Made by a program: the position numbers and the translations under genes
In this document: piece by piece, positions 12,568-37,600 of the stretch
How positions within the stretch are numbered: position 1 is the first letter of the stretch
Layout: every line of letters starts with the position of its first letter
Notes under the pieces: model-generated
Seen by the model: the letters and a program-made list of their open reading frames with translations, nothing else
What the model was told of the DNA's origin: nothing
The model's database searches: none
NCBI GenBank assembly: GCA_002245135.1
Contig: NGBS01001220.1
Location: forward strand, 1-39,557
Reading direction: 5' to 3'
Source of the DNA: Proteromonas lacertae
Taxonomy: Eukaryota
Length of the DNA: 39,557 nt

Positions 12568-15500
12568 TTATAAATTGTCATTTACTTTTTTCAACATTTC
12601 TTCAAATTCTATCCTTTGAAATTCATCTTCAACACTGGATATATATTTACTTGCTTCATTCAAATATTTCTTTGATTCTTCATAATCTTTCTATTTTCAT
12701 TATAATCACATTCATATATATACAATATCAAAATAACATTCACCCATTTCATTATTACATCTAAATCTCTCATAATCACTTTTAGCTAATTTTAATGCAT
12801 TATTATATTGTTCTTTAGCTTCATCAATAGTACCTAGCTTAAATAAATACTTACACACATATATATAATATAGGCATCTATCTTCATCTGATTCAGCAAA
12901 TTCAATTGCCGAAGTAATACAATTAAATGAGTTTTCATTATCATTCTATTAAAATAACAATTGAAATATATACAAAACCCAAATAACAATCACCTAAATT
13001 CATAAAACACATATATTTTTGTTTATTTGTTGATGATACTTCTAATGCAGATTTATAATAATCTAATGATTTTTCATACTCTTTCTATAATAAAAGTAAA
13101 TTAGACACTACTATACAATATTAAAATAGCATAAACCAATATTTAAATTGCAACTATAATTCTCTTCATCTGTTGATGCAAGATTTAATGCACATTCAAA
13201 ATAATCTTTTGCTTTTTCATATTCCCTCTATAATAATAATAATAATAATTGTTTATAATCATACAATCTTCAAATCACAAACACCTATTCTAAAGTTGCA
13301 TAAGTAAATCTTTTCATTTGTGGAAGCAAAGTCTAAAGCAGATTCTAAATATTCAATTGCTTTTTTAATTTTTCTCTATATTATCATTTATATCAAGTAT
13401 AATACTGCTAGTTCATAAAAATTACTGATAGTGAAACAACATTCGTATTTTTCTTCATTTTTAGAAGTGAATTGTAATGCAGACTTAAAATGTTCTAAGG
13501 AATCATTAAAATCACCCTATAATATGAATATTTTTATGGTTATACTAGATTGCCATAACACAATGCTATATGGTTGTTACATAAATATTTCATTCTGTTA
13601 ATATATTGCAAAGATTCTTCATCTAAAGGGTTAAGATGTTCTAATTCATAGAGATTCTCAAATGCAGTTTTAAAATATTTTATAGCTTGTTCATATTCTT
13701 CAACATTTGCACTACACAAACCAATATTAAAGTAACAATCACATTTTTCTCTATTTGTAAATGCAAAAACTAATGCTGATTCAAAACGCTCTTTAGATTC
13801 TTTAAATTGATTCTATACATTCATTTATACACAAAATTTATACTAGATTTCGATAACTTTCACCAATTTTGAATTTGCATTTAAATTTTTCATTATTTGT
13901 AGATGAATCATTTAGAGCAGTTACAAGGTATTCTATTGATCTTATATAATTCTTCTATAAAGAAATAATAGATAATATATTTACAGAGTTAAAACTTTCA
14001 CTTCCTCTTGTATAATTTTCAATGTATTTTTTTACTTTTGTAAGTTTTTCAATATATTCTTCATCTTCTATTGAGTATAAGAACTTGATTATTGAGTTGA
14101 TTGTATCCAGGTTGTTATGATCAATTAAATCAATCAGTATATGTAAATCATTTAGATATATTTCTTTGTTCTTTTTCAATTCTACTGCATCATCTTCACC
14201 ATATGGAGGATTCTTTTGATTTATTGAAGGAAAGAATTTCTATGATTTAAATAAATAAAGATATTTCTATACAATTGTTAATTCAATTTTCCAATACGAT
14301 GAGAATTCTTTATTGCTCATTTTAATGATTTCTTTTAATGTTTTACCTTCTATAAAACCACCTCCTAAATAAAAATTCAGAATTTTAGAATCACAAAAAG
14401 AAGTATCTTCACTTGTTCCATTATTCACTGAAGTTGAAGGTAATGTTGAATCATTATTAATATAAGCATTAACTTCTTTAAACATATCTTCAAATAATTT
14501 CTTATCATATGGATCTTCTACACCTGAAATATAAATATTTGCTTCATTCAAATGTTTCTTGGATTCTTCATAATCTTTCTATTCTCATTATAATAATCAT
14601 CATATTATATACAACATCAAAATAGCATTTACCCATTATATATTCACAACTAAATTTCTGATAATCAGTTTTGGCTAATTTTAATGCTTTCTTATATTGA
14701 TCTATAGCTTGATTATTAATACCAAGTTTAAATAAACATTCACACATAAACATAAAACATATAAGTCTATCTTCATCAGATTCAGCAAATTCTAATCCTG
14801 AGATATAAAATCCCAAAGCTTCTTTATATTCTTTCTATAATTATTATAACTGCATAAATTATACAAGATTCATATTAATACAACCTAAGTTTATACTACA
14901 TTTGTGTTTATTTTTTTTTATTATTGCAAATTTTGACGCAGATTTATAATACTCTATTGCTTTATCTAATTCATTCTATTGTATTATAAATAACAAATAA
15001 TCATACTAGATCTGCATAACATACACCTATACCAAACACACAATTGAATTTTTCTTCATCTGATTCAGCAAATTTTAATGCATCATTCAAATGTTCAATT
15101 GATTTTATATTTTCTTTCTATAAATCAATTTATATCAACTATTATACTTTCGATAAAAAATATCTACTTATATTAAGATAACATTCATATTTCTGTTTCT
15201 TTGTTGAGGAGAATTCTAATGCAGAATTAAAAGAATCAATTGCTCTGTCATATTCAAGCTATAACATTAATATCATCATAATTATACTATTGCAGAATAA
15301 CATTTACCTATAGTAGAATTACACTCATATTTATCTTCATTTGTTGAGGCTAATTCTAAGGCAGAATTTAAATAGCCAAATGCTCTGTCATATTCAAGCT
15401 ATAATATAAACAACTGTTAAAATCAATACTAAATATGTATAACACACACCAAGAGTGTAATTACTTTTGCATTTCTTGTTATTCATTTTAGATTTTGATG

Positions 15501-17354
15501 ATTCTGTTAAACTACAATCATTTTCTATTGAAGATATTATATCTAATGTAGTTTCTAAATAACTTATCGAATGTCTGTATTCTTTCTATCACATTAAATG
15601 AATAATTAGTTATACAAGAGCAGCATAACATAAACCAATATAAAAGTTACAATCACATTTTTCTTCTTTTGATGATGCAAAAACTAATGCAGATTCACAA
15701 TGCTTTAATGATTCTCTGAAGTAATTCTATCACATAAAATTCTTAAGAAACAATACAATTTCAAAATATGATTTACCTAGATTGTAATTACATTGGTGTA
15801 ATTCTTCATCTGTATTAGCATTCTTTAAAGCACATAATGAATATTCTATTGATTCTTTATTATCATTCTATGTAATAAATAATTCATAATAGTTATACAA
15901 CTTTATTATATAATTCTGCTAAATTAAAACAACATTTGAATTTATCTAATTTTGTATTAGCATTCTCTAAAGCAGATTTAAAACATTCTATTGCTTTTTC
16001 ATATTTTTGCTATAAAACAAGATAAACATCCTATATACATAATCAAAATATTTTGTAGCTTCTTCAAAATTTTCTTTGAATGTTTTTTCTTTTGTAAGTT
16101 TCTCCATATATTCTTTATCTTCTATTGAGTCTAAGAAGTTAATCATTGAGTTGAGTAGATCATCGTTGTTGTGATCTATTAAATTTATTAAGATATGTAA
16201 ATCATTTAGAAAATTGTCTTTATTCTTAATTAATTTTTTGGCGTCTTCTTTAGTATATGAAGGATTATCTTGACCTATTGAAGGAAAGAACATCTATTAT
16301 ATAAATGTATTTATGTTTTTATACAAATTTAAATTCATCTTTCCAGTAGGATGAAAATTCTTCTTGTTTTATATCACAATATTCTTTTAATGTTTTACCT
16401 TCTATATTACCTTTTCCTAAATAAAACGATAAAATTAATGAATAATATGATGAAAAACTAGCTAATTCGTTTGAAGCTTCAGCTATTGATGGTGAAGAAA
16501 ATGATGAATCACTTATAGAAGGAACAGGAGGAGTGTTTGATATTTTGTTTATTTCTTCTTCTATCTCATCAAGTTTTATTCTTTCATTCATATTTTTCTC
16601 TAACATTCGCTTTATTAATGCTTCTATTTGAGGAATTTTAACTCCACTTACTCTCACAAAATCTAATTCTGTTCTTAAAAATAAATTATTTATTATCTCC
16701 CTTTTGTTCTTTCCTTCAAAAGCCATTCTTAATGTATAAATCTCATATAAAATACATCCTAAAGCAAATATATCACTGGCTGATGAATAGGGACGAGGGA
16801 TTCTATTGGTTATTTCAGGAGCCATGTAACTATAAGTTCCTTTCAATACATCATCAGTACTATCAATTCCAGTTGCTAATCCAAAATCACTTATTATTAA
16901 TTCATTATGATCTCCTACTAAAATATTTCCTGGTTTTAAATCTCGATGAATTATTCCTTTACTATGAATATACTTTAAACCATTTATTAAATCTTTCATA
17001 TACATCATCATTTCCTAAAGATCATTAATATATCATCATATATACATTTACTGAGAAATCTTCTTTTTTATCTTTCTTTTCATCTATCAGCTTCCATAAA
17101 TCACCATTTTTTAAATACTCTGTGTATATATAGCATATATTTTCTTCTTCAATTATTACACTATCTTTTAGTATCAAGATATTTCGATCTCTCAACTCTT
17201 CTAAAATCTTTATTTCATTTTTTATTGTCTCTAAATATCCTGATTCTACTTTAATCTCTTTTCTAGCTAGCTTTAAACCATTATGTCTTACTAAACACAC
17301 TTTGCTAAAACCACCTTCTCCAATTGTTTCATATTTTTCATCATTTATTTTCAT
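12568..17354 (-). CDS. Array gene A: Ser/Thr kinase (NEK-like) + two tandem [OGFr-like + TPR-like array] modules
   Basis: Exon 1 17354-17046 (GEGGFSKV, ARK); intron 17045-17015; exon 2 17014-16325 (HRDLKPGN, DFG, APE, DIFALG, then FYLGKGNIEGKTLKE); intron 16324-16294; FFPS exon; eight single-repeat exons plus a double exon. The cap exon at 14578 reads on into a second linker/OGFr-like unit and a second repeat array, ending ...MLKKVNDNL* at 12568. Confidence 0.85.
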
Positions 17355-17416
17355 TATGCTCTTAAATCAAACTGTTATTTCTATGAGTTAAAAAACAGAA
17401 ATTTTATGATTTGAAG

Positions 17417-17435
17417 TCAAACCTAAGAATCAAGC
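17417..17435 (-). promoter_or_regulatory. Candidate upstream element, paired G(C/T)TTGA on the sense strand, before gene A
   Basis: + strand tcaaacctaagaatcaagc, ~63 nt upstream of the ATG; homologous elements lie upstream of all six array genes. Confidence 0.55.
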
Positions 17436-17609
17436 TTATATAACTCATATTCTTTTATATAGATGTAAACATAATTACTTTGGTATAATCAACTTTGATA
17501 GGTTAAATAAAATATCAAATTATTAAATACTGTTTGAATTAACCTAATAATAATAATAATAATAATAATAATAAGATTTATGATATTATTTAACAATAAA
17601 ATTGTGTTT

Positions 17610-20294
17610 TTATTTATAAGCATTTACTTTTTTCAACATTTCTTCAAATTCTTTTCTTTCTTCATCATCTTCTACACTTGATATGTATTTACTTGCTTCA
17701 TTCAAATATTTCTTTGAAACTTCATATTCATTCTATTTTCATTAAAATAATCTTTTATACATTTTCAAAATAACATTTACCCAGTGTTTTATAACAAGTA
17801 AACTTTTCATAATCACTTTTAGCTAATTCTAATGCATTATTATAATGATCTTTTGCTTCATCAATAGCACCAATATTAAATAGACATTGGCAAAGATATA
17901 TATAATATAAACATCTATCTTCATCTGTTTCTGCATATTTAAAAGAATCTATAAAGAATTCCATTGATTTTTCATATTCTTTCTATAATATTTATAGTTA
18001 AAACAATTATACAAGTTTCAAATAATCATCACCTATGTTATTATAACAAGTAAATCTTTCCTTGTTTGAAGATGCAAGTTTCAAGGCTAAGTTATAATAA
18101 GAGATTGATTTTGTATAATCTTTCTATAATGTTTTATTATTGAACAATCATACTATATTTTTACAACAAACACCTAATAAAAAATAACAATCATATTTCT
18201 CTTCATTTGTTGAAGAATTTTCTAAAGCAGATAAATAAAACTGTATTGAGTTTTGGTATTGTTTCTATACATATACAATAACAAATACAATATAATAATA
18301 ACTATTCCCAATATAACATTTATGATTGTATTTATCATTATTAGAGACAGCATCTAAGGTATATTTTAAATAATCAATTGCTTTTTCATATTCTTTCTAT
18401 AGCAAATATAATATATTGACTTACCAAAGAATATAAATTTAGACCAATGCATGCTTTGCACAAATATTTTTGTTCATTTGTTTTGGCATTATCTAAAGCT
18501 AATTTATAAAATTTTGTTGAATTATCATATTCTGCCTATTATATATATAATTTCAACATTAATACAAGTTGTATATAACTTTTGCCTATTTTTGTATGAC
18601 ATTCATATTCTTGTTCATTTGTATTGGCATTATTTGAGGCAGATTTATAAAATGGAATAGATTCTTCTATTTTGCCCTATTCATTTATATATTATGATAA
18701 TTATACGACATTCACAAAACAATCACCTATATTTATACTGCAAGTATATTTTCTTTCATTTGTTTTGGCATTTTCTAAAGCTATTTTATAATGTTTGATT
18801 GAATTATCATATTCTGCCTATTAAACTTGTTATTGCAAATATTATACAAGTTGAGCATAACACCAACCAATTCTGTTTTCACAGTCATATTTTTCTTCAT
18901 CTGAAGAGACATTTTCCAATGCAGATTTTAAGCAATTAATTGATTTTCCACATTGTTTCTATAAGATTCATTACTTTATATGATAATACAAGTTGAACAT
19001 AACACTTACTAATATTTAGTCTACAGGTATATTTTTGTTCATTTGTTGAAGAATTTTCTAAAGCAGATTTAAAACATTCTATTGAATTATTATATTCTGC
19101 CTATTATATATATAATTTCAACATTAATACAAGCTGAAAATAACAAGTACCAATTTTCATTTCACATTCATATTTTCTTTCATTTGTTTTGGCATTTTCT
19201 AAAGCTATTTTATAATGTTCGATTGAGTTTTCATAGTCATTCTATTCAATATAAAATACTACAATTATACCTCTCTTTTATAAAATGAACCTAAGGTGTA
19301 ATAACCAATGAATTTATCTTCATCAGTTTCCGTATAATCTAATGCATTTAGTAAATACCCTTTGGATATTTCAAGTTCGTTCTACTCATTTATAATTATA
19401 AATAATTATACAAGATTCAAATAACACTTTCCTATATTTGAAATACATTTAAATTTTTCTTTCTTTGAAGTAGCATAATCTAAGGCAGTTTCTAAAATAT
19501 CTCTGGATTTTTCAAATTGCCTCTATACATTAGAAATATCCTTTACTCATACTCTATGAAAATAACATTCACCTATTTTATAATTACATTCACATTTTTC
19601 TTCATCTGTAAAGGAATTTTCTAGTGCTCTAGACATATATTTTATTGAGTTTTCATAGTCATTCTATTCAATTCATAGTTATATTTATCATACAACTATC
19701 AAATAGCATAAACCAATTTTGTAACTACTTTCATACTTTTCTTTATTTGTCAAAGAATTCTCTAAAGCTGTTATATAACATTTTATCGATGGCTCATATT
19801 CATGCTATAATAATACATTAAATATTCTTCTTATACCAAATTAAAATATCTATTTCCTTCATTATAATTATCTTCATATTCCATGTGTTTTCTTTCTTTG
19901 TTGAGTAGTTGTATATATTCTGTATCTTCTATTGTTTCTAAAAAATCTATTATATTGTCGAGATTATCTTTACTTTTGTCAATTAAATCAATCAATCTAT
20001 GTAAATCATTTAGATAAACATCTTTGTTATTCTTTAGCTCAGTTGAATCATCTTCAGTATAAGGAGGATTATTTTGTTTATGTGATGGAAAGAATCTCTA
20101 ATCATATTAACTACTAGATTTATATATACAATTACTAAATTATCATTCCAATATGAAGAAAACTCTTCTTTATCCATTTCAATAATCTCTTTTAAAGTCT
20201 TTCCATTAATAGCTGCACCTTTTAAATAAAATAACAGAATTACAGAATTACAATATAATAAATTTCCTGATTCTTCACTTGTAGTAGTAGTGGC

Positions 20295-20329
<35 letters not shown>

Positions 20330-21178
20330 CAGTTGATGCAGAAGGATATGATGTATCACTAATATAAGGAACAGGAGGAGCTGTGTTTGGTAATTTGTTT
20401 ATTTCTTCTATTTTGTCTTTTTCTTCATCAATTGTGTCTATCATATCTTCAATTTTATCAAGGTTTATTCTTTCACTTTCATCTTTTTTTAACATTTGCT
20501 TTATTAACTCTTCAATTTGAAAAAATCTTTTTCCACTTATTCTATCAAAATCTAATTCTTTCCCTGACTGTAACTCATTCTCTATTTCTTTTTCATTTCT
20601 TTCTTTAAATATAACATTCAATGTGTATATTTCATAAAATATACATCCAAGAGAAAATATATCACCAAATTCGTTACATCTAGAAGGTAAATTTAAGATA
20701 GAATCTTTAGAAATGTAATTTATCATTAATTCATTTCTTTTTCCTACTAAGATATTCTCTAGTGTCAATTCTTTATGATTTAATTCTATACTGTGAATAT
20801 ATTTTAATCCATTTACTAGATCCATCATACACTCAACTATTTCCTATAACAATTATACATATATTACTTCCAGTATACCTCTAAAGAGAAATCTTCACTC
20901 ATTTCTTTTCTTTTACTTATTACATCACATAAATTTCCCTTTTCAACGTAATCTGTGAATATATAACAAACATTTTCACTCTTAACAATCTCATAGTCTT
21001 TCATTCTCAAAATATACCTATCTTTCACAGTGATTAATTTTTCACATTCTCGTTTTACTAATTCTATGGATTTTGGAGTTATATTAAAGCCTTTCCTTGC
21101 CATTATCACTCCATTGCGATTTACTTTACATAATTTCTTCACATCGCCTTTTGCAACATTAGAAATAGCATTGTTCAT
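17610..21178 (-). CDS. Array gene B: pseudokinase + poly-Thr linker + OGFr-like + TPR-like array (13 single-repeat exons + double exon + cap)
   Basis: Kinase fold is recognisable (MARK, YIFTDYVEKGNL, GLKYIHS, ENILV, DIFSLGCIFYEI), but the Gly loop is lost, HRD is HKE, DFG is replaced by NYI and the activation segment/APE is deleted. ~141-nt exon+intron periodicity over 19805-18013. Stop TAA at 17610. Confidence 0.85.
18530..19240. repeat. Internal four-exon-period duplication in the TPR array of gene B (also in D)
   Basis: tctgcctattatatatataatttcaacattaatacaag, which includes a whole intron, occurs at 18531 and 19096 (offset 565, about 4 x 141). tttcatttgttttggcattttctaaagctattttataatgtt recurs at ~18754 and ~19178. 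Confidence 0.85.
20280..20330 (-). repeat. (ACT)n coding microsatellite giving the poly-Thr linker of gene B (copy at ~27613-27663 in D)
   Basis: gtagtagtag run on the + strand; translates as STATTTTTTTTTTTATTTTS. Confidence 0.9.
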
Positions 21179-21242
21179 CTTATAAGTGCTTTAATTGCAA
21201 AATATACCTCTCTTAAATGAAAAAGAAAATTAAAAAAAAGAT

Positions 21243-21260
21243 TCAAACCTGTAATCAAGC
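21243..21260 (-). promoter_or_regulatory. Same candidate element before gene B
   Basis: tcaaacctgtaatcaagc, ~65 nt upstream of the ATG; flanks are unrelated to those of gene A. Confidence 0.55.
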
Positions 21261-21343
21261 CTAGTTTTTCTTTTAAGAATAAATATTACTTAAAATAAAA
21301 AAGTATGAATAAGCTAGTTTGTATATATATTATGATAAATCTT

Positions 21344-23473
21344 CTATATTCTTATAATCTCTCCAAATTCTATTTTAAAACTATCTTCAACTATATTCCA
21401 CATATATTTACTCGATTCGTTTAGGTACTTCTTAAATTCTTCATATTTGCCCTATTTTATCAAATGCAAAATATATACCCTTTCAAAGAAACAGTTACCT
21501 ATTATAAAGTTACACCTAAATCTTTCATGGTCATTATTGGCTAATTTTAAAGATTCATTATATAGATAATTCGATTCTTCTACTGGATTGATGTTAAACA
21601 TATATTTACACATATTAATGTAATATAAACATTTGTCTTCATCTGATTCTGCAAATTCAAATGCTAAAATAAGATTATTCATTGCCTTTTCATCATTTTT
21701 CTATTATAATTTCATATTAAAATAATAATAAAACATACCATATTAAAATAACAATCACTTATACTCATATTGCATGTAAATTTTTCTCCATTTGTAGAAG
21801 CGCATTGAAAAGCATAATTATAATTTTCAATTGCTTGTTGGTAATGTTTCTATTATATATTATAAAAAACAATTATACCAAATTCCAATAACTATTGCCA
21901 ATATTTATATAGCAGGTATATTTTTCTTGATCTATTAAGGTGTTACCTAATACTGATTTATTATATTCTATTGAATCTTCAAGTTCATTCTAAATATTAA
22001 TTATATTAATAATATACACTATCCATACAACCACCATTTATACCAAAACTACATATATATATATCTTTATCTGTAGAATTGGCTTTTTCAAAGACATCTT
22101 TATAATATTCTATTGGTTTTTCAGTTTCATTCTATCATATAATAATAACATTACTTATCATAATAACAATACAGTAATAAAACACTTACCAAGATATACA
22201 ATACTGACACTTTTCTTTTCAATTTCAAATGCATTTTCTAAGGCAGATTTATAGTATTTTATTGAGTTTTCATATTGTTCCTAGTTAATATAGAAGTATT
22301 ATACAATATTCCAATAACATTCACCTATAATTGTGTTACATATGTATTTTTCTTCATTCTTAGAAGCATTCTCTAAGGCTGATAAAAAATAGTGTATTGA
22401 TTCTTGATAGTTATTCTATAATAATAACTGAAATAACTATACATTTATGAAATAACACATTCCTAAGCTATAAAAACAATAATAATTTTCTAATGACATT
22501 ATCATATTTACTTCTGCTTGTTGCTCATGAGTATATTCATTAATTTCAAAACTATTATGATCACTTTCTAAAGCAGATTTATAATAATTTATTGACCTTT
22601 CATATTCCATCTATTGATTAAAATAATAAGCATACCTTTTTGAAATATATATTACCCAAAAAATATTTGCTAATGAATATCTGAAAATTAATTTTCGTAA
22701 GATCCAATCCATTCAGAAAATATATTTTGGATTTTTCATACTCATTCTGTTACATCATAAATATAAAGATATAATACATTAATAAAATAATTAAATCCTA
22801 TTCGAATAAAACAGTAATATTTCTCTTTCTTTGTACAACAAGATTCCAATGCCATAGAAAAATATTCATCAGCTTTATCATTATCTTTCTACAATATAAT
22901 TAATACTACATATATACAAGATTCATAAAACACAATCCAATATGGTAATTACAGTCATATCTTTCTATTATTGTAGTATTAAATTCAAATGCAGATTTAT
23001 AAAACTGCATTGATTTATCATAGTCTTTCTATTATTTACATAACTATTCAACAATACAAGATTGAAATAACATTCTGCAATTCTGAAATGACATTCATAT
23101 TCCTCTTCTTTTGATGAAGTGTTGTTTAATGCAATTGTAAAACACTCTATAGAGGATTTATAATTCATCTATTAATAACAATATTATCATATATATTTAC
23201 ATACAAAATATAAATTCTTTTTCCCTTCCTCATAATTATCTTTATACTTTTTTTCTTTATTCAGCTTTTCTACATATTCATAATCTTCAATTGATTTTAA
23301 AAAGTTTAATATTTTGTTGAGATTATCTTTACCATGATCTATCAAGTCAATTACCCTATATAAATCATTTATAAAGCTATCTTTTCTGTTTTCCAATTTC
23401 ACTGCATATTCTTTAGTATATTCACTGCCTTTTTCATCCACTGAAGGAAATAACAACTATTTTTATGATTATA

Positions 23474-23510
<37 letters not shown>

Positions 23511-24544
23511 CCAAATAATCATCTTTCCAGAATGAAGAAAATTCTTCTAAATTCATTTTTCTAATTTCTTTTAGTGTTTTACCTTCTATATTCCCACCTC
23601 CTAAATAGAAATTGAGAATAAAAGAATCACAGTTAGAAGAAAAACTAGCTTCTTCACTTGATGTATTATCTATTGATGGTAATGGTAATGTTGAATTATG
23701 GCTAACATAGGCAATAGGAGGAGTATTTAACATTTGGATTACTTCTTTTTCTATTTCATCAATTTTTATTCTTTTATTGACATCTTTCTCTAACATTTGC
23801 TTTATTAATTCTTCTATTTGCTGGAATCTTATTCCACTTAACCTTCTAAAGCTCATTTTTTCATTATATTTTATCCTATTCTTTATAACTTCATTATTTT
23901 CTCCATCAAAAGCCATTCTTAATGTATATATTTCATAAAATACACAACCTAAAGCAAATATATCACTGGCTGATGAATAGGGACGAGGGATTCTATTGGT
24001 TATTTCAGGAGCCATGTAACTATAAGTTCCTTTCAATACATCATCATTATTTTCATTTTCAGTTGCTAATCCAAAATCACTTATTATTAATTCATTATGA
24101 TCTCCTACTAAGATATTTCCTGGCTTTAAATCTCGATGAATTATTCCTTTGTTATGAATATACTTTAAACCATTTATTAAATCTTTCATGTACATCATCA
24201 TTTCCTAAATATCATTGATATATCATCATATATACATTTACTGAGAAATCTTCTTTTTTATCTTTCTTTTCATCTATCAGCTTCCATAAATCACCATTTT
24301 TTAAATACTCTGTGTATATATAGCATATATTTTCTTCTTCAATTATTACACTATCTTTTAGTATCAAGATATTTCGATCTCTCAACTCTTCTAAAATCTT
24401 TATTTCATTTTTTATTGTCTCTAAATATCCTGATTCTACTTTAATCTCTTTTCTAGCTAGCTTTAAACCATTATGTCTTACTAAACACACTTTGCTAAAA
24501 CCACCTTCTCCAATTGTTTCATATTTTTCATCATTTATTTTCAT
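21344..24544 (-). CDS. Array gene C: chimeric Ser/Thr kinase + OGFr-like + TPR-like array (10 single-repeat exons + double exon + cap)
   Basis: Exon 1 matches gene A exon 1. HRDLKPGN/DFG/APE are intact. From ASDIFALGC onward it matches gene E. Repeat exons span 23168-21738. Stop TAG at 21344. Confidence 0.85.
23457..23508 (-). repeat. Intron lengthened to 52 nt by a (TA)n microsatellite (gene C; the copy in E is one unit shorter)
   Basis: (TA)n run follows the GT donor; the C/E offset changes from 7333 to 7331 across it. Confidence 0.8.
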
Positions 24545-24606
24545 TATGCTCTTAAATCAAATTGTTATTTCTATGAGTTAAAAAACAGAAATTTTATGAT
24601 TTGAAG

Positions 24607-24625
24607 TCAAACCTAAGAATCAAGC
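24607..24625 (-). promoter_or_regulatory. Same candidate element before gene C
   Basis: tcaaacctaagaatcaagc, a duplicate of the gene A upstream region. Confidence 0.5.
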
Positions 24626-24738
24626 TTATATAACTCATATTCTTTTATATAGATGTAAACATAATTACTTTGGTATGACCAAATTTAATAGGATAAATAA
24701 AATATCAAATTATTAAATACTGTTTGAATTACCCTACC

Positions 24739-24770
<32 letters not shown>

Positions 24771-24805
24771 GATTTATGATATTATTTAACAATAAAATTG
24801 TGTTT

Positions 24806-27627
24806 TTATTTATAAGCATTTACTTTTTTCAACATTTCTTCAAATTCCTTTCTTTCTAATTCATCTTCTACAATGATATACTTCATTGCTTCATTCAAGT
24901 ATTTCTTTGAATCTTCATATTCATTCTATTTTCATTAAAATAATCTTTTATACATTTTCAAAATAACATTTACCCAGTGTTTTATAACAAGTAAACTTTT
25001 CATAATCACTTTTAGCTAATCCTAATGCATTATTATATTGATTTATAGCTTCTTCAATAGTACCAATATTAAATAAACATTCACACATATTAATATAATA
25101 CAAACATCTATCTTCATCTGTTTCTGCATATTTAAAAGAATCTATAAAGAATTCCATTGATTTTTCATAATCTTTCTATAATATTTATAGTTAAACAGTT
25201 ATACCAATTTCAAATAATCATCACCTATGTTATTATAACAAGTAAATCTTTCCTTGTTTGAAGATGCAAGTTTCAAGGCTAAGTTATAATAAGAGATTGA
25301 TTTTGTATAATCTTTCTATAATGTTTTATTATTGAACAATCATACTATATTTTTACAACAAACACCTAATAAAAAATAACAATCATATTTCTCTTCATTT
25401 GTTGAAGAATTTTCTAAAGCAGATAAATAAAACTGTATTGAGTTTTGGTATTGTTTCTATACATATACAATAACAAATACAATATAATAATAACTATTCC
25501 CAATATAACATTTATGATTGTATTTATCATTATTAGAGACAGCATCTAAGGTATATTTTAAATAATCAATTGCTTTTTCATATTCTTTCTATAGCAAATA
25601 TAATATATTGACTTACCAAAGAATATAAATTTAGACCAATGCATGCTTTGCACAAATATTTTTGTTCATTTGTTTTGGCATTATCTAAAGCTAATTTATA
25701 AAATTTTGTTGAATTATCATATTCTGCCTATTATATATATAATTTCAACATTAATACAAGTTGTATATAACTTTTGCCTATTTTTGTATGACATTCATAT
25801 TCTTGTTCATTTGTATCGGCATTATTTGAGGCAGATTTATAAAATGGAATAGATTCTTCTATTTTGCCCTATTCATTTATATATTATGATAATTATACGA
25901 CATTCACAAAACAATCACCTATATTTATACTGCAAGTATATTTTCTTTCATTTGTTTTGGCATTTTCTAAAGCTATTTTATAATGTTCGATTGAATTATC
26001 ATATTCTGCCTATTAAACTTGTTATTGCAAATATTATACAAGTTGAGCATAACACCAACCAATTCTGTTTTCACAGTCATATTTTTCTTCATCTGAAGAG
26101 ACATTTTCCAATGCAGATTTTAAGCAATTAATTGATTTTCCACATTGTTTCTATAAGATTCATTACTTTATATGATAATACAAGTTGAACATAACACTTA
26201 CTAATATTTAGTCTACAGGTATATTTTTGTTCATTTGTTGAAGAATTTTCTAAAGCAGATTTAAAACATTCTATTGAATTATTATATTCTGCCTATTATA
26301 TATATAATTTCAACATTAATACAAGCTGAAAATAACAAGTACCAATTTTCATTTCACATTCATATTCTTGTTCATTTGTATTGGCATTATTTGAGGCAGA
26401 TTTATAAAATGGAATAGATTCTTCTATTTTGCCCTATTCATTTATATATTACGATAATTATACGACATTCACAAAACTATCACCTATATTTATACTGCAA
26501 GTATATTTTCTTTCATTTGTTTTGGCATTTTCTAAAGCTATTTTATAATGTTCGATTGAGTTTTCATAGTCATTCTATTCAATATAAAATACTACAATTA
26601 TACCTCTCTTTTATAAAATGAACCTAAGGTGTAATAACCAATGAATTTATCTTCATCAGTTTCCGTATAATCTAATGCATTTAGTAAATACCCTTTGGAT
26701 ATTTCAAGTTCGTTCTACTCATTTATAATTATAAATAATTATACAAGATTCAAATAACACTTTCCTATATTTGAAATACATTTAAATTTTTCTTTCTTTG
26801 AAGTAGCATAATCTAAGGCAGTTTCTAAAATATCTCTGGATTTTTCAAATTGCCTCTATACATTAGAAATATCCTTTACTCATACTCTATGAAAATAACA
26901 TTCACCTATTTTATAATTACATTCACATTTTTCTTCATCTGTAAAGGAATTTTCTAGTGCTCTAGACATATATTTTATTGAGTTTTCATAGTCATTCTAT
27001 TCAATTCATAGTTATATTTATCATACAACTATCAAATAGCATAAACCAATTTTGTAACTACTTTCATACTTTTCTTTATTTGTCAAAGAATTCTCTAAAG
27101 CTGTTATATAACATTTTATCGATGGCTCATATTCATGCTATAATAATACATTAAATATTCTTCTTATACCAAATTAAAATATCTATTTCCTTCATTATAA
27201 TTATCTTCATATTCCATGTGTTTTCTTTCTTTGTTGAGTAGTTGTATATATTCTGTATCTTCTATTGTTTCTAAAAAATCTATTATATTGTCGAGATTAT
27301 CTTTACTTTTGTCAATTAAATCAATCAATCTATGTAAATCATTTAGATAAACATCTTTGTTATTCTTTAGCTCAGTTGAATCATCTTCAGTATAAGGAGG
27401 ATTATTTTGTTTATGTGATGGAAAGAATCTCTAATCATATTAACTACTAGATTTATATATACAATTACTAAATTATCATTCCAATATGAAGAAAACTCTT
27501 CTTTATCCATTTCAATAATCTCTTTTAAAGTCTTTCCATTAATAGCTGCACCTTTTAAATAAAATAACAGAATTACAGAATTACAATATAATAAATTTCC
27601 TGATTCTTCACTTGTAGTAGTAGTGGC

Positions 27628-27662
<35 letters not shown>

Positions 27663-28511
27663 CAGTTGATGCAGAAGGATATGATGTATCACTAATATAA
27701 GGAACAGGAGGAGCTGTGTTTGGTAATTTGTTTATTTCTTCTATTTTGTCTTTTTCTTCATCAATTGTGTCTATCATATCTTCAATTTTATCAAGGTTTA
27801 TTCTTTCACTTTCATCTTTTTTTAACATTTGCTTTATTAACTCTTCAATTTGAAAAAATCTTTTTCCACTTATTCTATCAAAATCTAATTCTTTCCCTGA
27901 CTGTAACTCATTCTCTATTTCTTTTTCATTTCTTTCTTTAAATATAACATTCAATGTGTATATTTCATAAAATATACATCCAAGAGAAAATATATCACCA
28001 AATTCGTTACATCTAGAAGGTAAATTTAAGATAGAATCTTTAGAAATGTAATTTATCATTAATTCATTTCTTTTTCCTACTAAGATATTCTCTAGTGTCA
28101 ATTCTTTATGATTTAATTCTATACTGTGAATATATTTTAATCCATTTACTAGATCCATCATACACTCAACTATTTCCTATAACAATTATACATATATTAC
28201 TTCCAGTATACCTCTAAAGAGAAATCTTCACTCATTTCTTTTCTTTTACTTATTACATCACATAAATTTCCCTTTTCAACGTAATCTGTGAATATATAAC
28301 AAACATTTTCACTCTTAACAATCTCATAGTCTTTCATTCTCAAAATATACCTATCTTTCACAGTGATTAATTTTTCACATTCTCGTTTTACTAATTCTAT
28401 GGATTTTGGAGTTATATTAAAGCCTTTCCTTGCCATTATCACTCCATTGCGATTTACTTTACATAATTTCTTCACATCGCCTTTTGCAACATTAGAAATA
28501 GCATTGTTCAT
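24806..28511 (-). CDS. Array gene D: pseudokinase + OGFr-like + TPR-like array; near-copy of gene B with one extra repeat exon
   Basis: ORFs 28197-28511 and 27367-28161 are identical to 20864-21178 and 20034-20828. The offset to gene B shifts from 7192 to 7333 at ~26365-26505. Stop TAA at 24806. Confidence 0.85.
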
Positions 28512-28575
28512 CTTATAAGTGCTTTAATTGCAAAATATACCTCTCTTAAATGAAAAAGAAAATTAAAAAAAAGAT

Positions 28576-28593
28576 TCAAACCTGTAATCAAGC
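28576..28593 (-). promoter_or_regulatory. Same candidate element before gene D
   Basis: tcaaacctgtaatcaagc, a duplicate of the gene B upstream region. Confidence 0.5.
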
Positions 28594-28676
28594 CTAGTTT
28601 TTCTTTTAAGAATAAATATTACTTAAAATAAAAAAGTATGAATAAGCTAGTTTGTATATATATTATGATAAATCTT

Positions 28677-30806
28677 CTATATTCTTATAATCTCTCCAAA
28701 TTCTATTTTAAAACTATCTTCAACTATATTCCACATATATTTACTCGATTCGTTTAGGTACTTCTTAAATTCTTCATATTTGCCCTATTTTATCAAATGC
28801 AAAATATATACCCTTTCAAAGAAACAGTTACCTATTATAAAGTTACACCTAAATCTTTCATGGTCATTATTGGCTAATTTTAAAGATTCATTATATAGAT
28901 AATTCGATTCTTCTACTGGATTGATGTTAAACATATATTTACACATATTAATGTAATATAAACATTTGTCTTCATCTGATTCTGCAAATTCAAATGCTAA
29001 AATAAGATTATTCATTGCCTTTTCATCATTTTTCTATTATAATTTCATATTAAAATAATAATAAAACATACCATATTAAAATAACAATCACTTATACTCA
29101 TATTGCATGTAAATTTTTCTCCATTTGTAGAAGCGCATTGAAAAGCATAATTATAATTTTCAATTGCTTGTTGGTAATGTTTCTATTATATATTATAAAA
29201 AACAATTATACCAAATTCCAATAACTATTGCCAATATTTATATAGCAGGTATATTTTTCTTGATCTATTAAGGTGTTACCTAATACTGATTTATTATATT
29301 CTATTGAATCTTCAAGTTCATTCTAAATATTAATTATATTAATAATATACACTATCCATACAACCACCATTTATACCAAAACTACATATATATATATCTT
29401 TATCTGTAGAATTGGCTTTTTCAAAGACATCTTTATAATATTCTATTGGTTTTTCAGTTTCATTCTATCATATAATAATAACATTACTTATCATAATAAC
29501 AATACAGTAATAAAACACTTACCAAGATATACAATACTGACACTTTTCTTTTCAATTTCAAATGCATTTTCTAAGGCAGATTTATAGTATTTTATTGAGT
29601 TTTCATATTGTTCCTAGTTAATATAGAAGTATTATACAATATTCCAATAACATTCACCTATAATTGTGTTACATATGTATTTTTCTTCATTCTTAGAAGC
29701 ATTCTCTAAGGCTGATAAAAAATAGTGTATTGATTCTTGATAGTTATTCTATAATAATAACTGAAATAACTATACATTTATGAAATAACACATTCCTAAG
29801 CTATAAAAACAATAATAATTTTCTAATGACATTATCATATTTACTTCTGCTTGTTGCTCATGAGTATATTCATTAATTTCAAAACTATTATGATCACTTT
29901 CTAAAGCAGATTTATAATAATTTATTGACCTTTCATATTCCATCTATTGATTAAAATAATAAGCATACCTTTTTGAAATATATATTACCCAAAAAATATT
30001 TGCTAATGAATATCTGAAAATTAATTTTCGTAAGATCCAATCCATTCAGAAAATATATTTTGGATTTTTCATACTCATTCTGTTACATCATAAATATAAA
30101 GATATAATACATTAATAAAATAATTAAATCCTATTCGAATAAAACAGTAATATTTCTCTTTCTTTGTACAACAAGATTCCAATGCCATAGAAAAATATTC
30201 ATCAGCTTTATCATTATCTTTCTACAATATAATTAATACTACATATATACAAGATTCATAAAACACAATCCAATATGGTAATTACAGTCATATCTTTCTA
30301 TTATTGTAGTATTAAATTCAAATGCAGATTTATAAAACTGCATTGATTTATCATAGTCTTTCTATTATTTACATAACTATTCAACAATACAAGATTGAAA
30401 TAACATTCTGCAATTCTGAAATGACATTCATATTCCTCTTCTTTTGATGAAGTGTTGTTTAATGCAATTGTAAAACACTCTATAGAGGATTTATAATTCA
30501 TCTATTAATAACAATATTATCATATATATTTACATACAAAATATAAATTCTTTTTCCCTTCCTCATAATTATCTTTATACTTTTTTTCTTTATTCAGCTT
30601 TTCTACATATTCATAATCTTCAATTGATTTTAAAAAGTTTAATATTTTGTTGAGATTATCTTTACCATGATCTATCAAGTCAATTACCCTATATAAATCA
30701 TTTATAAAGCTATCTTTTCTGTTTTCCAATTTCACTGCATATTCTTTAGTATATTCACTGCCTTTTTCATCCACTGAAGGAAATAACAACTATTTTTATG
30801 ATTATA

Positions 30807-30841
<35 letters not shown>

Positions 30842-31871
30842 CCAAATAATCATCTTTCCAGAATGAAGAAAATTCTTCTAAATTCATTTTTCTAATTTCT
30901 TTTAGTGTTTTACCTTCTATATTCCCACCTCCTAAATAGAAATTGAGAATAAAAGAATCACAGTTAGAAGAAAAACTAGCTTCTTCACTTGATGTATTAT
31001 CTATTGATGGTAATGGTAATGTTGAATTATGGCTAACATAGGCAATAGGAGGAGTATTTAACATTTGGATTACTTCTTTTTCTATTTCATCAATTTTTAT
31101 TCTTTTATTGACATCTTTCTCTAACATTTGCTTTATTAATTCTTCTATTTGCTGGAATCTTATTCCACTTAACCTTCTAAAGCTCATTTTTTCATTATAT
31201 TTTATCCTATTCTTTATAACTTCATTATTTTCTCCATCAAAAGCCATTCTTAATGTATATATTTCATAAAATACACAACCTAAAGCAAATATATCACTTG
31301 CTGTTGAATATGGACGAGCTCCTTCATCCCATAACTCAGGAGCTATAAAATTTGGAGTTCCGTTTAGTAAATAATCAGTACTATCAATTCCAGTTGCTAA
31401 TCCAAAATCACTTATTATTAATTTTTTATGATTTCCAACTAAAATATTTCCTGGTTTTAAATCTCGATGAATTATCCCTTTACTGTGAATATATTTCAAT
31501 CCACTAACTAAATCTTCCATAAAATTAATTATTTCCTATATAATTTATTCATATTACTTCATTTATACTGTAAATGTAAAATCTTCATTTTTACTGATCT
31601 TCTCATCTATTAATTTCCCTAAATCTCCTTTCTTTACATATTCTGTGTATATATAACGCATATTTCCATCAATCTCATAATTTTTCATTAATAACACATT
31701 TGGATGATCCAGCTGCTGTAGAATACTAATTTCATTTTTAATAGCATCTTCCAATTGTTCTGTTATTTTTATTTCTTTTCTAGCTAGCTTTAAACCATTA
31801 TGTTCAACTAAACACACTTTGCTAAAAGCACCTTTTCCAATTATTTCATATTTTTCATCATTTGTTTCCAT
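28677..31871 (-). CDS. Array gene E: Ser/Thr kinase + OGFr-like + TPR-like array
   Basis: Exon 1 METNDEKYEIIGKGAFSKV...HPNVL; exon 2 HRDLKPGN, DFG, GTPNFIAPE. The 3' part is essentially identical to gene C at offset 7333. Stop TAG at 28677. Confidence 0.85.
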
Positions 31872-32071: not shown

Positions 32072-34383
32072 TTATTTATCATTCAATTTTTTAAATATTT
32101 CTTCTAATTCTCTATTTGACTCTTCATTTACACTTGATTTATATTTATATGCTTCACATAAATACTTCTTGGCATTTTCTATATCATTCTATTTTCAAAA
32201 TAATAATAATAATCATTATAGTATATATACTCTTTCAAAAAGAAGTTTACCCAATTTATAACTACATATAAATCTTTCAACATCTGTATTAACTGATTCT
32301 ATTGCTCTATTATAATTATCTACTGCATCATCTATCATACCAATACTATACAAACAAGCACACATATACATATTGCATAAGCACTTATCCTCATTCAATT
32401 CTACATATTCTAATGCTAAAAGTAGGTATTCCATAGATTTTTCAATATTATTCTATTATATTAACAATTCAAATAATCATACAAGTTTCAAATAACTTGC
32501 ACCTAAGTAGAAACAACATTCGTATTTTACTCTATTTAAGCATGGTAGTTCTAAAGCCCATTTGAAATGTTCTATTGATTTTTCATACTCTTCCTATTTA
32601 ATTATATAACCATTTAAAAACTTACCATATCATAATAACAATAACCTTTTTTATATTCAAATATAAAACACTCATCTTTTGTAAATATATCTTTCACTCG
32701 AGATGAAAAATTTTCTATTAATTGTTTATATTCGTTCTATTTATATATATATATATATATTATTAAAAATAAATATATACTAATTTGTTGTTACATATAT
32801 CAATATTTAATTCACAATTCTGTCTTTCTTCACTTGTTGTACATTTTTCTAGTGTTGATTGTAAATATTTCATTGACATTTTATTTTCTCTCTATCATAA
32901 TATTATTCATTATATTATACAAGAAAGGAACAATAGTTAGACATAATAGCTGAATAATATGAAAGCATTTTTTGTTTCGTTGTTGTATACTTTAATCCTT
33001 CTTCTAAATATTCTGTTGATATATCATATTCTTTCTATTATAATGTCTATAATTATATGCATACTAGAACTGAATAGCAAATAGCTATATCATAATAACA
33101 AGAGCTTTTTTCTATATCTACATAAGATACTTCCAATGCAGATTTAAAATAATCAATTGCTTTTATGTAGTCTTGCTATTAATTCATAAAGTCAAATATA
33201 TATACAACACTTTCATAGCATTTACCTAAATAGTAAATACATGAACATTTTTCTACATTTGTATAGGCAAATTGTAAAGCAGTAGTCAAACATTCTATCG
33301 ATTTTTCATTCTCTTTCTATTAAAAAAAAAGTATAAGTATTAATTACTATAATCATACAAGATTGTAATAACATCTTCCAATGTTAGAGTAGCAAAGACA
33401 TTTATTTTCATTTATATAGGCAGTTTGTAATGCAACTTGATAAAACTGTATAGATACTTCATATAATCCCTATTCAAAATAATAAACAACACTTATATAT
33501 ACCATTATTAAGTAATTTTCACCAATACTAGTATTACATTGAAATCTTTCTACATCATCAGTTGCCAACTCTACAGCTTTAAGTAAAAATTCTATTGATA
33601 CTTCACATTCACCCTATCAAATTGATAAATAAATGAATATAAAATACAAGATCCATATAACAAAAGCCAATTTTGCTACTACATTCATATTTTTCTTTAT
33701 TTGTAGATGCATATGTCAATCCACGATAAAAATACTCTAATGCTTTAGCATATTGTTTCTAATTGTATAATAGTAAAAAATAGATTTACTGTAGAGAAAT
33801 AGTTATCTCCTGTATTTATTAATGATTTACATGTTTCTTGATCTGTTTGGGTAATTAATATCTTAGTATTATCATTAGGTATTTCATTTACATCATATGA
33901 AGGTTTTAAATATTCCAATTCCCTTAAGATGTTTACTGGAGGTTGTTCATATTTTTCTATAGATCTTTTCACTTCAATCAGTTTTTCAACATATTCATTA
34001 TCTTCTATAGACGATAAGAAGTTTATCATTGAATTGACTACATCTTTGTTGTTTTTATCAATCAAGTCAATTAGTTTATGCAAATCATTTAAATATTTGT
34101 CCTTGTTATTCTTTAATTCTGCTACTTCTTCATTTGTATATGACGGTTCTACTTGGTTGATTGAGGGAAAGAATATCTATTGTATAAACAAATATAATAA
34201 ATGATATACAAATACAAAATCATTTTTCCAGAATGAAGAAAAAACTTCTGGCTTTATTTCAACAATCTCTTTTAAGGTTTTGCCTTCAATTACTCCATTT
34301 CTTAAATAAAAATTGAGTACTAAAGAATTATAGTTAAGAGAATAATTAGCTAGTTCACTAGATGCAACACAAGGTGGTAACAT
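32072..34383 (-). CDS. Array gene F: kinase-less member (OGFr-like + TPR-like array)
   Basis: Starts MLPPCVASSELANY...LNFYLRNGVIEGKTLKEI. An intron precedes the IFFPS exon, then nine single-repeat exons, a double exon and a cap ending FKKLNDK* at 32072. Only ~300 nt separate it from the WDR35 stop, so no kinase exons fit upstream. Confidence 0.8.
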
Positions 34384-34684: not shown

Positions 34685-37600
34685 TCACATTCGACTTTTG
34701 TCAAGAGGACCATGACATAATGGACAATATTGAGTATCTCGAACTTCAATCTTTTCAGTCTTATGTTTACATCGACTACATCGATAAAATGAATCACTCG
34801 TTATTGGTAAACCACTTGCTACACTCCAAGCAACTTTCGCTCCACATTTTATACACTCTGTACTCCAACGATACAAATACTCACCACATTTCTTTGGACA
34901 TTCCATTTTCTTATCTTCTTTATCATTATAATTATGTTTTGTAAAGATCTTCACTGCTACACTCTCATATTTCTTTCGATCTTCATTACTGATATTTGGT
35001 AATGATTCTAAATTCATAAACGCTTGACTACATAATCGATAATTCTTACTTTGATAAGCAGTATAAGCTAATAACGAATAGATATCTTCACCATCTAATA
35101 TATCTTCATAAGATGATAATCGATTAGCTACTATCATTGCATCCATCATTCGATTCTCATATAAGTGACGATGACATAATAAGTATAAATGATAAGCTTC
35201 AGCACCTCGCCAATGTTTCTCTAATAGTTTATTACCAGAAGTAGCTGAATCTTGAGTCATTAATTGATCCAAGGTTACTGCAGTTGCTGTGGCAGTATCT
35301 AATGTAGATGTCATTGTTGTATCAAGGGTTTTGTTTTTGTATTCTTCCATTATTAATCCACTTAAGACATATAATTGTTTACATCGTAAGGGATTTACTT
35401 TCAATTTACCACATTCATTTGCTAATTCAGATAATATACTTGCTGCTTCTGTTGCTTTACCAGCTTTACGATATAATTCTACTGCAGCAAATTTACTTTC
35501 AGTTGTGTTTTCTTCTAAGATATGAGCAGAATATTTACCTAATAAACCTTCGATTTGAGGATATTGATATTGTTCAGCTAAATTCACTGCTTTATCCCAT
35601 TGATTCAATAATACACAACAATCGATTGATCCTTTTATATCACCCATCTTTAAGTATGCTTTTACTGCACTTTCAGTCATTCCAACAGATTGAAATTTTT
35701 GAGCTAAATCATTTAATAATGGAGAAGAATCAGGAACTTCATCTAATAATCGAGCTAATGCTTCATATTCTTCTAATATGTAATAAGCATTGATTAATGC
35801 TTCGATATTTCTAGCTTGAACATAATATCCAACGGAATATTTCCATTGTTGACGTTCGGCATAATAATCACCAATTTTGTTATAAGCTAAATTTAACATT
35901 TCTTCATTTGGAGTATCAGTCTATTTCAATAAATATAATATAATAATATAATAATATATACAGATTGTAATAATTGAATTACACAAAACCAATCGCCCAA
36001 TTTCATTCTCAAATCAATTGCTAAATCAAGACGATCAATCTCTTTATAGATTGATTCTGCTTCCTCAAATCTCTGGAAATATACGGCTACTTCAGCTTTC
36101 TGTTTCTGTTTATCAGTAATTGCTTTTAATCTTTTCACAAATTGAATTCCTTGATAATCTTCACATTGAACAAATGCTTTATCAGCTACTAAGAAATCTA
36201 ATTGAGATAATGCATATTCTGCTAATAATCGCCATAATCGAGGATGACTATGATCTTGAACATATTGATAAGCATCATTTAAACTAATTGTATTGATCAT
36301 AGCTCGAGCATCTCTCAAACTTATTGTCTCAAAATTTATCATACAACTCGATTTTGGTTCATCAGGTTTTTCCATTATCTCATCTAAATTAAATGAACGA
36401 ATTTCTAAATCTTTAAATTCAGCTAAATATCCATTACATAATATTGGTTCCTCAGGTTCTGTTCCTCGCATTATATATAATCGATTCTTCTCCATTACAG
36501 CGAATAAATCAGGATTATCATCAGCCCAAATCATATCCCAACTATCTTTCTTTTCATATGATAAAATCATTCCATTTGGATGTTCAGAATCAGTTTGTTT
36601 GAATGAAAAGAAGTTTAATGTTCCATTTATATCGATTATTGAGATCATTGTGGAATTGGAATTAATGGCTATCTTATCTGGTCGACATTTCACTTGAACT
36701 TTCTTTTCTAGATGAATATTTGGTAATGAATAACATTGGATTATTCCAGATTCTCTAGCGACTACTAATAGGTTATTACTGGCAGAAATACAACTAATAT
36801 GATCAGTTGTAGTAGCTCCAAATGTCTCATCAATATGGAATGTTGTTTCTTTACCTTCTTTACCAAGAGAAGGATTTAAATCAGCAAATTTAGCCATTGT
36901 CGATGTAAATTGCCAAACATAAATCATTGTACTGGAAGCAACGATAATGAATTGTTTATTCATAAACAAATGATCAGGAGTTATATCAATATAACGATTT
37001 TCTAATGGACTTCCTATTGCATTACATAATATCACAATATGTTGATTGGAATCTTCAGCTTTCGTTACTAATACACAATGATCACCATATGCTTTTATAT
37101 CTATCAATCTATTCGCATATTTTATATATTTCTCATGAGATACTACATTATAGAACATTACGCTATTATCTTCACGATCTGGACGAGTATAAGAGTAGAC
37201 TAAAGTATTACTGAAATAACCCCAACGATAATCAGGTCTTACACTTGCAAAGAATATATGGCCTACCAACTGCCATTGCGATTCTTAAACCATTTCCTTC
37301 CCAAGCGATTCCTTCTAAAGGACCTCCAGGAACTTTAAGAGATCGACGATTGATACCATAAGGAGTATAGAATTGGATTTTTGTTGATTCTTTTGGTTTT
37401 CCATCAGCTGTGTCAGTATTGTTTCAATTCCAGCTAAGGCCAAGTAATGTTCCATTGTTGTTCCATTGACAATGAGTTAATTCATTCCAGTATCGATTAA
37501 ATAATTGGATTATCATCTATCTCATTTCGAGCTATTTGAACTCGACCATTGCAAAAGCAATTGCTAAAGTTGGAACATTTGGCTCTAATAATCCTTGACT

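What the first reader, a model, noticed from the sequence alone, without database searches (positions are those of the whole stretch)
26365..26505. Repeat gain/loss caught in the act: D has exactly one more exon+intron unit (141 nt) than B
Seen: the B/D offset jumps from 7192 to 7333. B reads ttcacattcatatt|ttctttcatttg (~19161-19186), whereas D has 141 extra nt between the same flanks. The junction is mid-exon at a shared atatt, so B carries an in-frame hybrid exon made from two neighbouring repeats. The extra D segment is itself a near copy of ~25797-25940. This is direct evidence of in-register recombination producing new repeat sequences.
Basis: seen in the sequence. Interest (0 to 1): 0.7.

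Follow-up and report, generated by a model that had tools for sequence, protein, structure and literature searches.

The report
One TPR repeat lost between twins
Two nearly identical neighbouring genes of a flagellated protist differ by exactly one repeat unit (one exon plus one intron), most likely because the shorter copy lost it by ordinary recombination between adjacent repeats, a turnover already known from algal, ciliate and fungal repeat-receptor genes.

Summary
Gene D carries 141 nt (a 111-nt exon plus a 30-nt phase-0 intron) that its twin B lacks; the junction is a 5-nt microhomology and B stays in frame. Three refinements. Direction: D's extra unit is not a copy of its neighbours but part of an older 276-nt copy tract that runs through both flanks, so loss in B is likelier than gain in D. 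Product: the junction sits at the Pfam TPR boundary, so B lost one whole TPR, whose near-twin it keeps; the exon is hybrid, the TPR motifs are not. Context: B and D lie in a 7.33-kb tandem duplication whose junction is a chimeric kinase gene; they may be two alleles brought together. No reads were listed, so tandem placement, rate and somatic variation are untested; no positive selection was shown. The mechanism is known (Ectocarpus NB-ARC-TPR, Tetrahymena LRR, Podospora hnwd), and this scan noted similar TPR cassettes in other genomes. The kinase/pseudokinase + OGFr_N-like + TPR family itself looks undescribed.

The parts
26362..26502 (-). Extra unit in D (leftmost of six placements): 3' part of exon R5, the 30-nt intron 26434-26463, 5' part of exon R6; encodes one whole TPR in Pfam register
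   Evidence: register
26362..26366 (.). 5-nt microhomology, copy in exon R6
26503..26507 (.). 5-nt microhomology, copy in exon R5
19170..19174 (.). Single microhomology left at the junction in B
19131..19241 (-). Hybrid exon of B (R5 start, R6 end), in frame, 37 aa
26464..26574 (-). Exon R5 of D
26323..26433 (-). Exon R6 of D
26284..26559 (.). Older copy tract in D, 565 nt from its twin; 15 mismatches in 276 nt, 12 of them in a 30-nt patch (26326-26355)
25719..25994 (.). Twin of that tract (exons R9-R11 of D); B keeps the same stretch at 18527-18802
24806..28511 (-). Gene D: predicted pseudokinase, ~120-aa middle domain, 15 repeat exons (13 of 111 nt, one of 108, one double), terminal exon
17610..21178 (-). 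Gene B: twin of D with one repeat exon fewer
23948..23967 (.). Crossover window (20 identical nt) in kinase gene C: E-type to the left, A-type to the right; junction of the tandem duplication
16758..23967 (.). First copy of the tandem duplication
23948..31298 (.). Second copy of the tandem duplication
27170..27600 (-). Middle domain of D (two exons), weakly OGFr_N-like

Best explanation
Gene B most likely lost one 141-nt exon-plus-intron unit through an in-register deletion between neighbouring repeats R5 and R6, joined at a 5-nt microhomology at the edge of their best-matching stretch, while D keeps the older, longer state. Shown: the length difference, the microhomology, the intact frame, the one-repeat-per-exon layout, the junction at the TPR boundary. 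Inferred: the direction; the route (unequal exchange, slippage or end joining between 58%-identical units cannot be told apart); that the two copies were brought into tandem by an unequal crossover between kinase genes A and E, possibly between homologous chromosomes, so the loss may predate the duplication. The protein effect would be a TPR solenoid one repeat shorter, missing a repeat whose near-twin (one residue different) is still present four units on. The genes likely work as intracellular sensors (variable TPR groove joined to a kinase or pseudokinase); that function is inferred from architecture only.
For: Indel, microhomology, hybrid exon. A gain by slippage would duplicate a neighbour; the extra unit differs from its neighbours at 68 and 59 of 141 sites. 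In D both flanks and the extra unit match R9-R11 at one offset, 565; in B the same flanks match at two offsets, 565 and 424. The extra unit has 2 substitutions found in neither donor copy, while B and D differ at 2 of 1159 nearby sites (P of 2 or more = 0.025): it looks older than the B/D split. Exon position = TPR position + 23 in all five ORFs whose matches were compared. 15 21-mers of B's junction and 51 of D's stretch occur nowhere else in the window, so neither form is a mis-join of window copies. Three-way alignment shows C switching from E-type to A-type within 20 nt. Other exchange tracts of 31 and 28 nt between repeats exceed 200 of 200 permutations (max 27). Deletions that fuse repeats were the commonest class of selected hnwd mutants (PMC2873952, sections 6 and 10).
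Against: The 565 tract is broken by a 12-difference patch right beside the junction, so it may be two tracts; an 11-nt left and 57-nt right homology would also let R9-R10 template a gain. The 0.025 rests on two substitutions. No reads, no genome, no allele from elsewhere. Positive selection is not shown: B/D pN 0.015 against pS 0.028 over 9 exons, terminal exon left out; across 40 exons pN 0.42 against pS 0.46, near saturation.
Confidence: 0.65

Rival explanations
1. D gained the unit: a short, B-like gene was repaired on the R9-R10 template three to four units away (conversion with template switching), inserting one unit.
For: Donor and acceptor share 11 nt at the left junction and 57 nt at the right; the extra unit is 98% identical to that donor; gains and conversions occur in hnwd mutants (PMC2873952, section 10).
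Against: Needs two earlier tracts in registers exactly one unit apart (565 and 424); the youngest piece would carry 2 private changes while the 99 nt of flanking tracts carry none; at 26382 it matches B's donor, not D's own.
Confidence: 0.15
2. B and D are the two alleles of one gene, laid in tandem by the assembly; the 141-nt difference is a real length polymorphism between homologous chromosomes.
For: 4793 nt (19175-23967) are identical between the copies but for one AT unit, while 16758-18015 carries 48 substitutions and 4 small indels, like two haplotypes; those differences match no single paralogue in the window; the duplication junction overlaps by only 20 nt.
Against: The chimeric kinase C is intact and switches cleanly, as an unequal crossover predicts; a contig through two 4.8-kb identical copies normally needs long reads (inference).
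Confidence: 0.12
3. A targeted, possibly somatic, shuffling system rearranges these exon cassettes at high rate, as hypothesised for Ectocarpus.
For: Several layers of exchange in one array; variable positions fall on the TPR groove; hypothesis in PMC3341825 (abstract, passages).
Against: Repeats are only 57% identical on average; the junction is inside an exon with no conserved signal; 7 of 7 C/E 111-nt exons and the first four B/D exons are unchanged between copies; one length event in two gene pairs.
Confidence: 0.05
4. One of the two forms is a consensus error and both genes have the same length.
For: Short-read assemblies omit or create repeats in fungal hnwd genes (PMC12222747, passages); no reads could be checked.
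Against: Those repeats are near-identical; here R5 and R6 share 64 of 111 nt, the overlap is 5 nt, and both forms hold 21-mers absent from the rest of the window.
Confidence: 0.03

Closest known systems
Ectocarpus NB-ARC-TPR and ROCO genes (Zambounis et al. 2012, PMC3341825; ROCO follow-up PMC11378527)
   Same: One repeat period per exon, clustered paralogues, variable repeat number, candidate recognition proteins.
   Different: There 42-aa exons and an NB-ARC or ROC-COR domain; here 37-aa exons, 30-nt introns, a kinase or pseudokinase and a weakly OGFr_N-like domain; diversifying selection was reported there and is not shown here.
Podospora anserina hnwd (het-d, het-e, het-r) WD40 arrays (Chevanne et al. 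2010, PMC2873952)
   Same: In-register deletions fuse two repeats; short conversion tracts between repeats; loss commoner than gain among selected mutants.
   Different: NACHT-WD40 proteins with near-identical repeats and measured instability; here TPRs about 57% identical, each on its own exon, and a single inferred event.
Tetrahymena 90-bp-exon LRR genes (Xiong et al. 2019, PMC6564038)
   Same: Uniform exon length and intron phase in a protist; repeat number varies among close paralogues through unequal crossing over; some fused to kinases.
   Different: LRR, phase-2 introns, thousands of genes, link to a retrotransposon; here TPR, phase 0, no retroelement seen in the window.
Ligand-binding TPR domains (Magliery and Regan 2005, PMC1261162)
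   Same: Most variable positions 2, 5, 9, 12, 13 on the concave face; the four highest pN values here are positions 9, 2, 12, 5.
   Different: That pattern is general to TPRs and so does not point to immunity; period here is 37, not 34.

Membership tests
One-repeat-per-exon TPR arrays (Ectocarpus type) | Each repeat period on one exon of fixed length and phase | tested here: met
   13 of 15 repeat exons of D are 111 nt, all introns phase 0
One-repeat-per-exon TPR arrays (Ectocarpus type) | Repeats are TPRs | tested here: inconclusive
   Pfam TPR_1/TPR_2 hits in a constant register, E down to 2e-5, but single ORFs stay under the curated cut-offs
One-repeat-per-exon TPR arrays (Ectocarpus type) | Repeat number and order vary among paralogues | tested here: met
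   B 12 and D 13 exons of 111 nt; 5 to 8 in the other modules; exchange tracts
NB-ARC-TPR / NLR (STAND) receptors | NB-ARC or NACHT NTPase domain | tested here: not met
   The spliced D model holds only kinase, middle domain and repeats; Pfam finds Pkinase and TPR, no NTPase
NB-ARC-TPR / NLR (STAND) receptors | Diversifying selection on ligand-facing codons | tested here: inconclusive
   Groove positions most variable, but pN is not above pS
hnwd-type high-internal-conservation repeats | Near-identical repeats kept by concerted evolution | tested here: not met
   Mean exon identity 57% over 780 pairs; within genes 0.58, between 0.57; only 2 pairs above 85%
hnwd-type high-internal-conservation repeats | Measured mitotic instability of repeat number | not testable with these tools
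   No run listed
OGFr_N (PF04664), middle domain | Profile or fold match | tested here: inconclusive
   HHalign score 30, P 4e-4, probability 35%, 77 columns; 60 shuffles max 18.9; hmmsearch 2.7-10.1 bits, shuffles reach 6.2; only compact viral fold hit is an OGFr protein, E 0.65, prob 0.44; no Pfam hit
Active protein kinase (B and D) | HRD, DFG and APE motifs | tested here: not met
   D reads HKELTLEN with no DFG or APE; A, C, E keep all three; motif meaning is recalled knowledge
Blastocystis as the host lineage | 30-nt introns; loss of flagellar genes | tested here: inconclusive
   18 of 51 introns are 30 nt, but an IFT121/WDR35 gene flanks the cluster and Blastocystis lost nearly all such genes (PMC12129017, passages); best relative 53% identical

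The most novel reading that the evidence does not exclude
An undescribed receptor family of a flagellated protist, in which pseudokinase-TPR sensors sit beside active kinase-TPR partners, each with a degenerate OGFr_N-like domain, and in which whole TPRs and groove-facing patches are swapped fast enough to vary among cells of one clone: a combinatorial recognition repertoire in a single-celled eukaryote.
Probability: 0.07. Interest if true: 0.8.

Novelty: new member of a known kind. Interest (0 to 1): 0.3.

Why it matters
As an event it is ordinary: one repeat lost from a repeat array. Its value is that it is clean. Twin copies fix the junction to 5 nt, give a likely direction, and show that exon borders and structural repeat borders differ: the cut falls in the conserved linker, so folded TPRs stay whole although the exon is hybrid. 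The locus gives a simple PCR or long-read test (141-nt ladder) of the untested idea that such cassettes rearrange somatically in protists and algae. The surrounding family, with no named relative found, may matter more than the indel.

Tried and rejected
Whole genome: none held. Sequencing runs for 23500-27600: none was listed, so no reads were laid; no evidence either way. Metagenome contigs: 0 of 590 candidate stretches confirmed for the middle domain; 0 matches to a 24-nt junction-flank pattern. Viral contigs: 0 of 57. Prokaryote genomes: 8 of 600 stretches passed tblastn but by inspection are unrelated proteins sharing one short word; rejected. Word-indexed protein searches for the middle domain found nothing; the profile search did: 9 hits, 7 family members and 2 judged chance (P0127, P0128). 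ESM Atlas: no usable hit, then weak hits below the recognition mark. PDB sequence and fold searches: nothing above background, best Z 4.7; the model had mean pLDDT 55. Phage tblastn: none. Gain by tandem duplication of a neighbour: rejected. Non-standard genetic code: not needed, long frames are open under table 1. Stop codons made by polyadenylation: not needed, B and D end in encoded stops. Positive selection: not shown; the first B/D count was spoiled by an indel in the last exon and redone without it. A single in-window donor for the B/D patches or for the R6/R10 patch: not found. Script one search had an off-by-one and was replaced; one search stopped early and was finished. No paper on this family came up; no function for OGFr_N or in PMC9503650. 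Supplements were not read.

Full report
Observation. The window holds a tandem duplication: 16758-23967 recurs at 23948-31298. A global alignment shows one 141-nt gap, at B 19170 / D 26362, where the exact-match offset goes from 7192 to 7333. The extra segment matches 25797-25937 with 3 mismatches.

Anatomy. The genes are on the minus strand of an AT-rich eukaryote read with the standard code. Each repeat period is a 111-nt exon plus an intron of about 30 nt: 18 of 51 introns counted in the non-twin genes are 30 nt and 31 of 51 are 29-31 nt. D models as 19 exons, 1055 aa, and B as 18 exons, 1019 aa, all GT-AG, all phase 0, no internal stop. These models are predictions; no RNA was available. 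Both have a kinase-like N-terminus lacking HRD, DFG and APE, whereas neighbours A, C and E keep them, then a ~120-aa middle domain, then the repeats. Gene A has two middle-domain-plus-repeat modules and F appears to lack the kinase; I did not build full models of A, C, E, F. The cluster lies between VPS13 and IFT121/WDR35. The intron size recalls Blastocystis (PMC5608401, passages), but that genus lost nearly all flagellar genes (PMC12129017, passages) and the best WDR35 relative is 53% identical; the lineage is left open as a flagellated protist.

What the junction does. B's exon follows R5 to codon 22-23 and R6 from codon 25. Pfam places TPR position 1 at exon codon 24 in all five intron-free ORFs whose matches were compared, though none reaches the curated cut-off. 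Each exon therefore encodes the second helix of one TPR, a linker and the first helix of the next, and the junction lies at the TPR boundary. B has lost one whole TPR and gained only a new neighbour pairing. The lost TPR has a near-twin in R9-R10, which B keeps (2 nt, one residue different). This outcome is the default: all introns are phase 0, so any in-register cut keeps the frame; 52 of 542 microhomology runs of 5 nt or more at offsets 100-200 fall at exactly 141; 56% of in-register microhomology bases lie in codons 13-26, against 38% expected.

Direction. A gain by slippage or unequal exchange would duplicate a neighbour, but the extra unit differs from its neighbours at 68 and 59 of 141 sites. 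In D, 26284-26559 matches 25719-25994 at one offset, 565, with 15 mismatches, 12 of them in one 30-nt patch; in B the surviving flanks match at 565 on one side and 424 on the other. The extra unit has two substitutions present in neither donor copy, while B and D differ at 2 of 1159 adjacent sites (P = 0.025). So the long form looks older. Against this, the patch splits the tract, and 11-nt and 57-nt homologies would permit a templated gain. I put loss at about four to one over gain.

Context. Kinase gene C is E-type up to 23947 and A-type from 23968, with 20 identical nt between: the mark of an unequal crossover that made the duplication. The copies are identical over 4793 nt except one AT unit, but differ by 48 substitutions and 4 small indels in 16758-18015, which no single paralogue in the window explains. 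This fits a crossover between two haplotypes, or an assembly that stacked two alleles. In both cases the 141-nt difference is real: 15 21-mers of B's junction and 51 of D's stretch occur nowhere else in the window. Reads could not be obtained, nor other copies of the locus.

Wider exchange and selection. Among 38 non-twin exons, identical runs of 31 and 28 nt exceed the maximum (27) of 200 codon permutations, so exchange between repeats recurs. Yet mean identity is 57%, far from concerted evolution. The most variable sites are TPR positions 9, 2, 12, 5, the concave binding face in PMC1261162 (passages), which is true of TPRs in general. pN does not exceed pS (0.42 against 0.46 over 40 exons; 0.015 against 0.028 for B/D over 9 exons). 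An immune role is thus a guess from architecture.

Middle domain. A profile search over 1.84 billion representatives gave 9 hits, 7 of them family members from unnamed Logan contigs. One cluster member, P0137, has a kinase and two uninterrupted copies of the domain, which supports the predicted splice. A resemblance to OGFr_N (PF04664), first recalled, was tested against 20 bacterial members: HHalign score 30, P 4e-4, probability 35%, against a maximum of 18.9 in 60 shuffles; hmmsearch scores overlap shuffles. The only compact hit among viral structures is an OGFr protein, not significant. A lead, not a result.

Comparison. One-repeat-per-exon TPR arrays with shuffling are described in Ectocarpus (PMC3341825: abstract, passages, section 16; PMC11378527: abstract), uniform-exon LRR arrays with unequal crossing over in Tetrahymena (PMC6564038: passages), and repeat-fusing deletions and conversions were recovered directly in Podospora (PMC2873952: abstract, sections 6 and 10). 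Assembly errors in such arrays are documented for near-identical repeats (PMC12222747: abstract, passages). The genes here work like those arrays but are not NLRs (no NTPase) and not high-conservation repeats. Paper searches listed no description of this family. Earlier notes of this scan report similar TPR cassettes in other genomes; nothing for this genome.

Verdict. Real, well-defined, most likely a single-repeat deletion in B; a new example of a known process. Interest 0.3.

Noticed in passing
window 23948-23967 (gene C, about 21344-24544, minus): C is a chimera: A-type kinase N-part on an E-type kinase C-part and repeats, crossover within 20 identical nt; it is the junction of the 7.33-kb duplication.
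   Followed up: yes
window 27170-27600 and paralogues; P0129, P0137: Unnamed ~120-aa domain between kinase and repeats, present twice in gene A and in P0137; weak profile and fold resemblance to the N-half of OGFr_N, without its conserved H..IQW stretch.
   Followed up: partly
window 27367-28511 and 20034-21178: B and D encode a predicted pseudokinase that alternates with intact-kinase paralogues (A, C, E), suggestive of sensor-executor pairs.
   Followed up: partly
window 26326-26355 against 25761-25790: Within otherwise near-identical exons R6 and R10, 12 of 30 nt differ, changing five residues at TPR positions 4, 5, 9, 10, 12; no donor in the window.
   Followed up: partly
window 17652-17719, 17828-17908, 16857-16869: B/D and A/C differences come in dense patches, like short conversion tracts from paralogues outside the window; at 16857-16869 A matches E while C differs.
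   Followed up: partly
window 24954-25175 and equivalents; 13546-13812: The last-but-one exon of each gene is a double repeat without the intron; one more intron-free double occurs in gene A's second module: intron loss at exact unit borders.
   Followed up: no
window 23477-23507 and 30810-30838: An (AT)n run in the intron that splits the middle domain lengthens it to about 50 nt and is the only difference (one unit) in 4.8 kb of otherwise identical copies.
   Followed up: no
window 34685-38400 and 80-12365: Flanks are IFT121/WDR35 (minus) and VPS13 (plus); WDR35 is at most 53% identical to anything found, so the lineage is poorly sampled.
   Followed up: partly
window 32072-34383: Gene F starts at the middle domain and seems to lack the kinase.
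   Followed up: no
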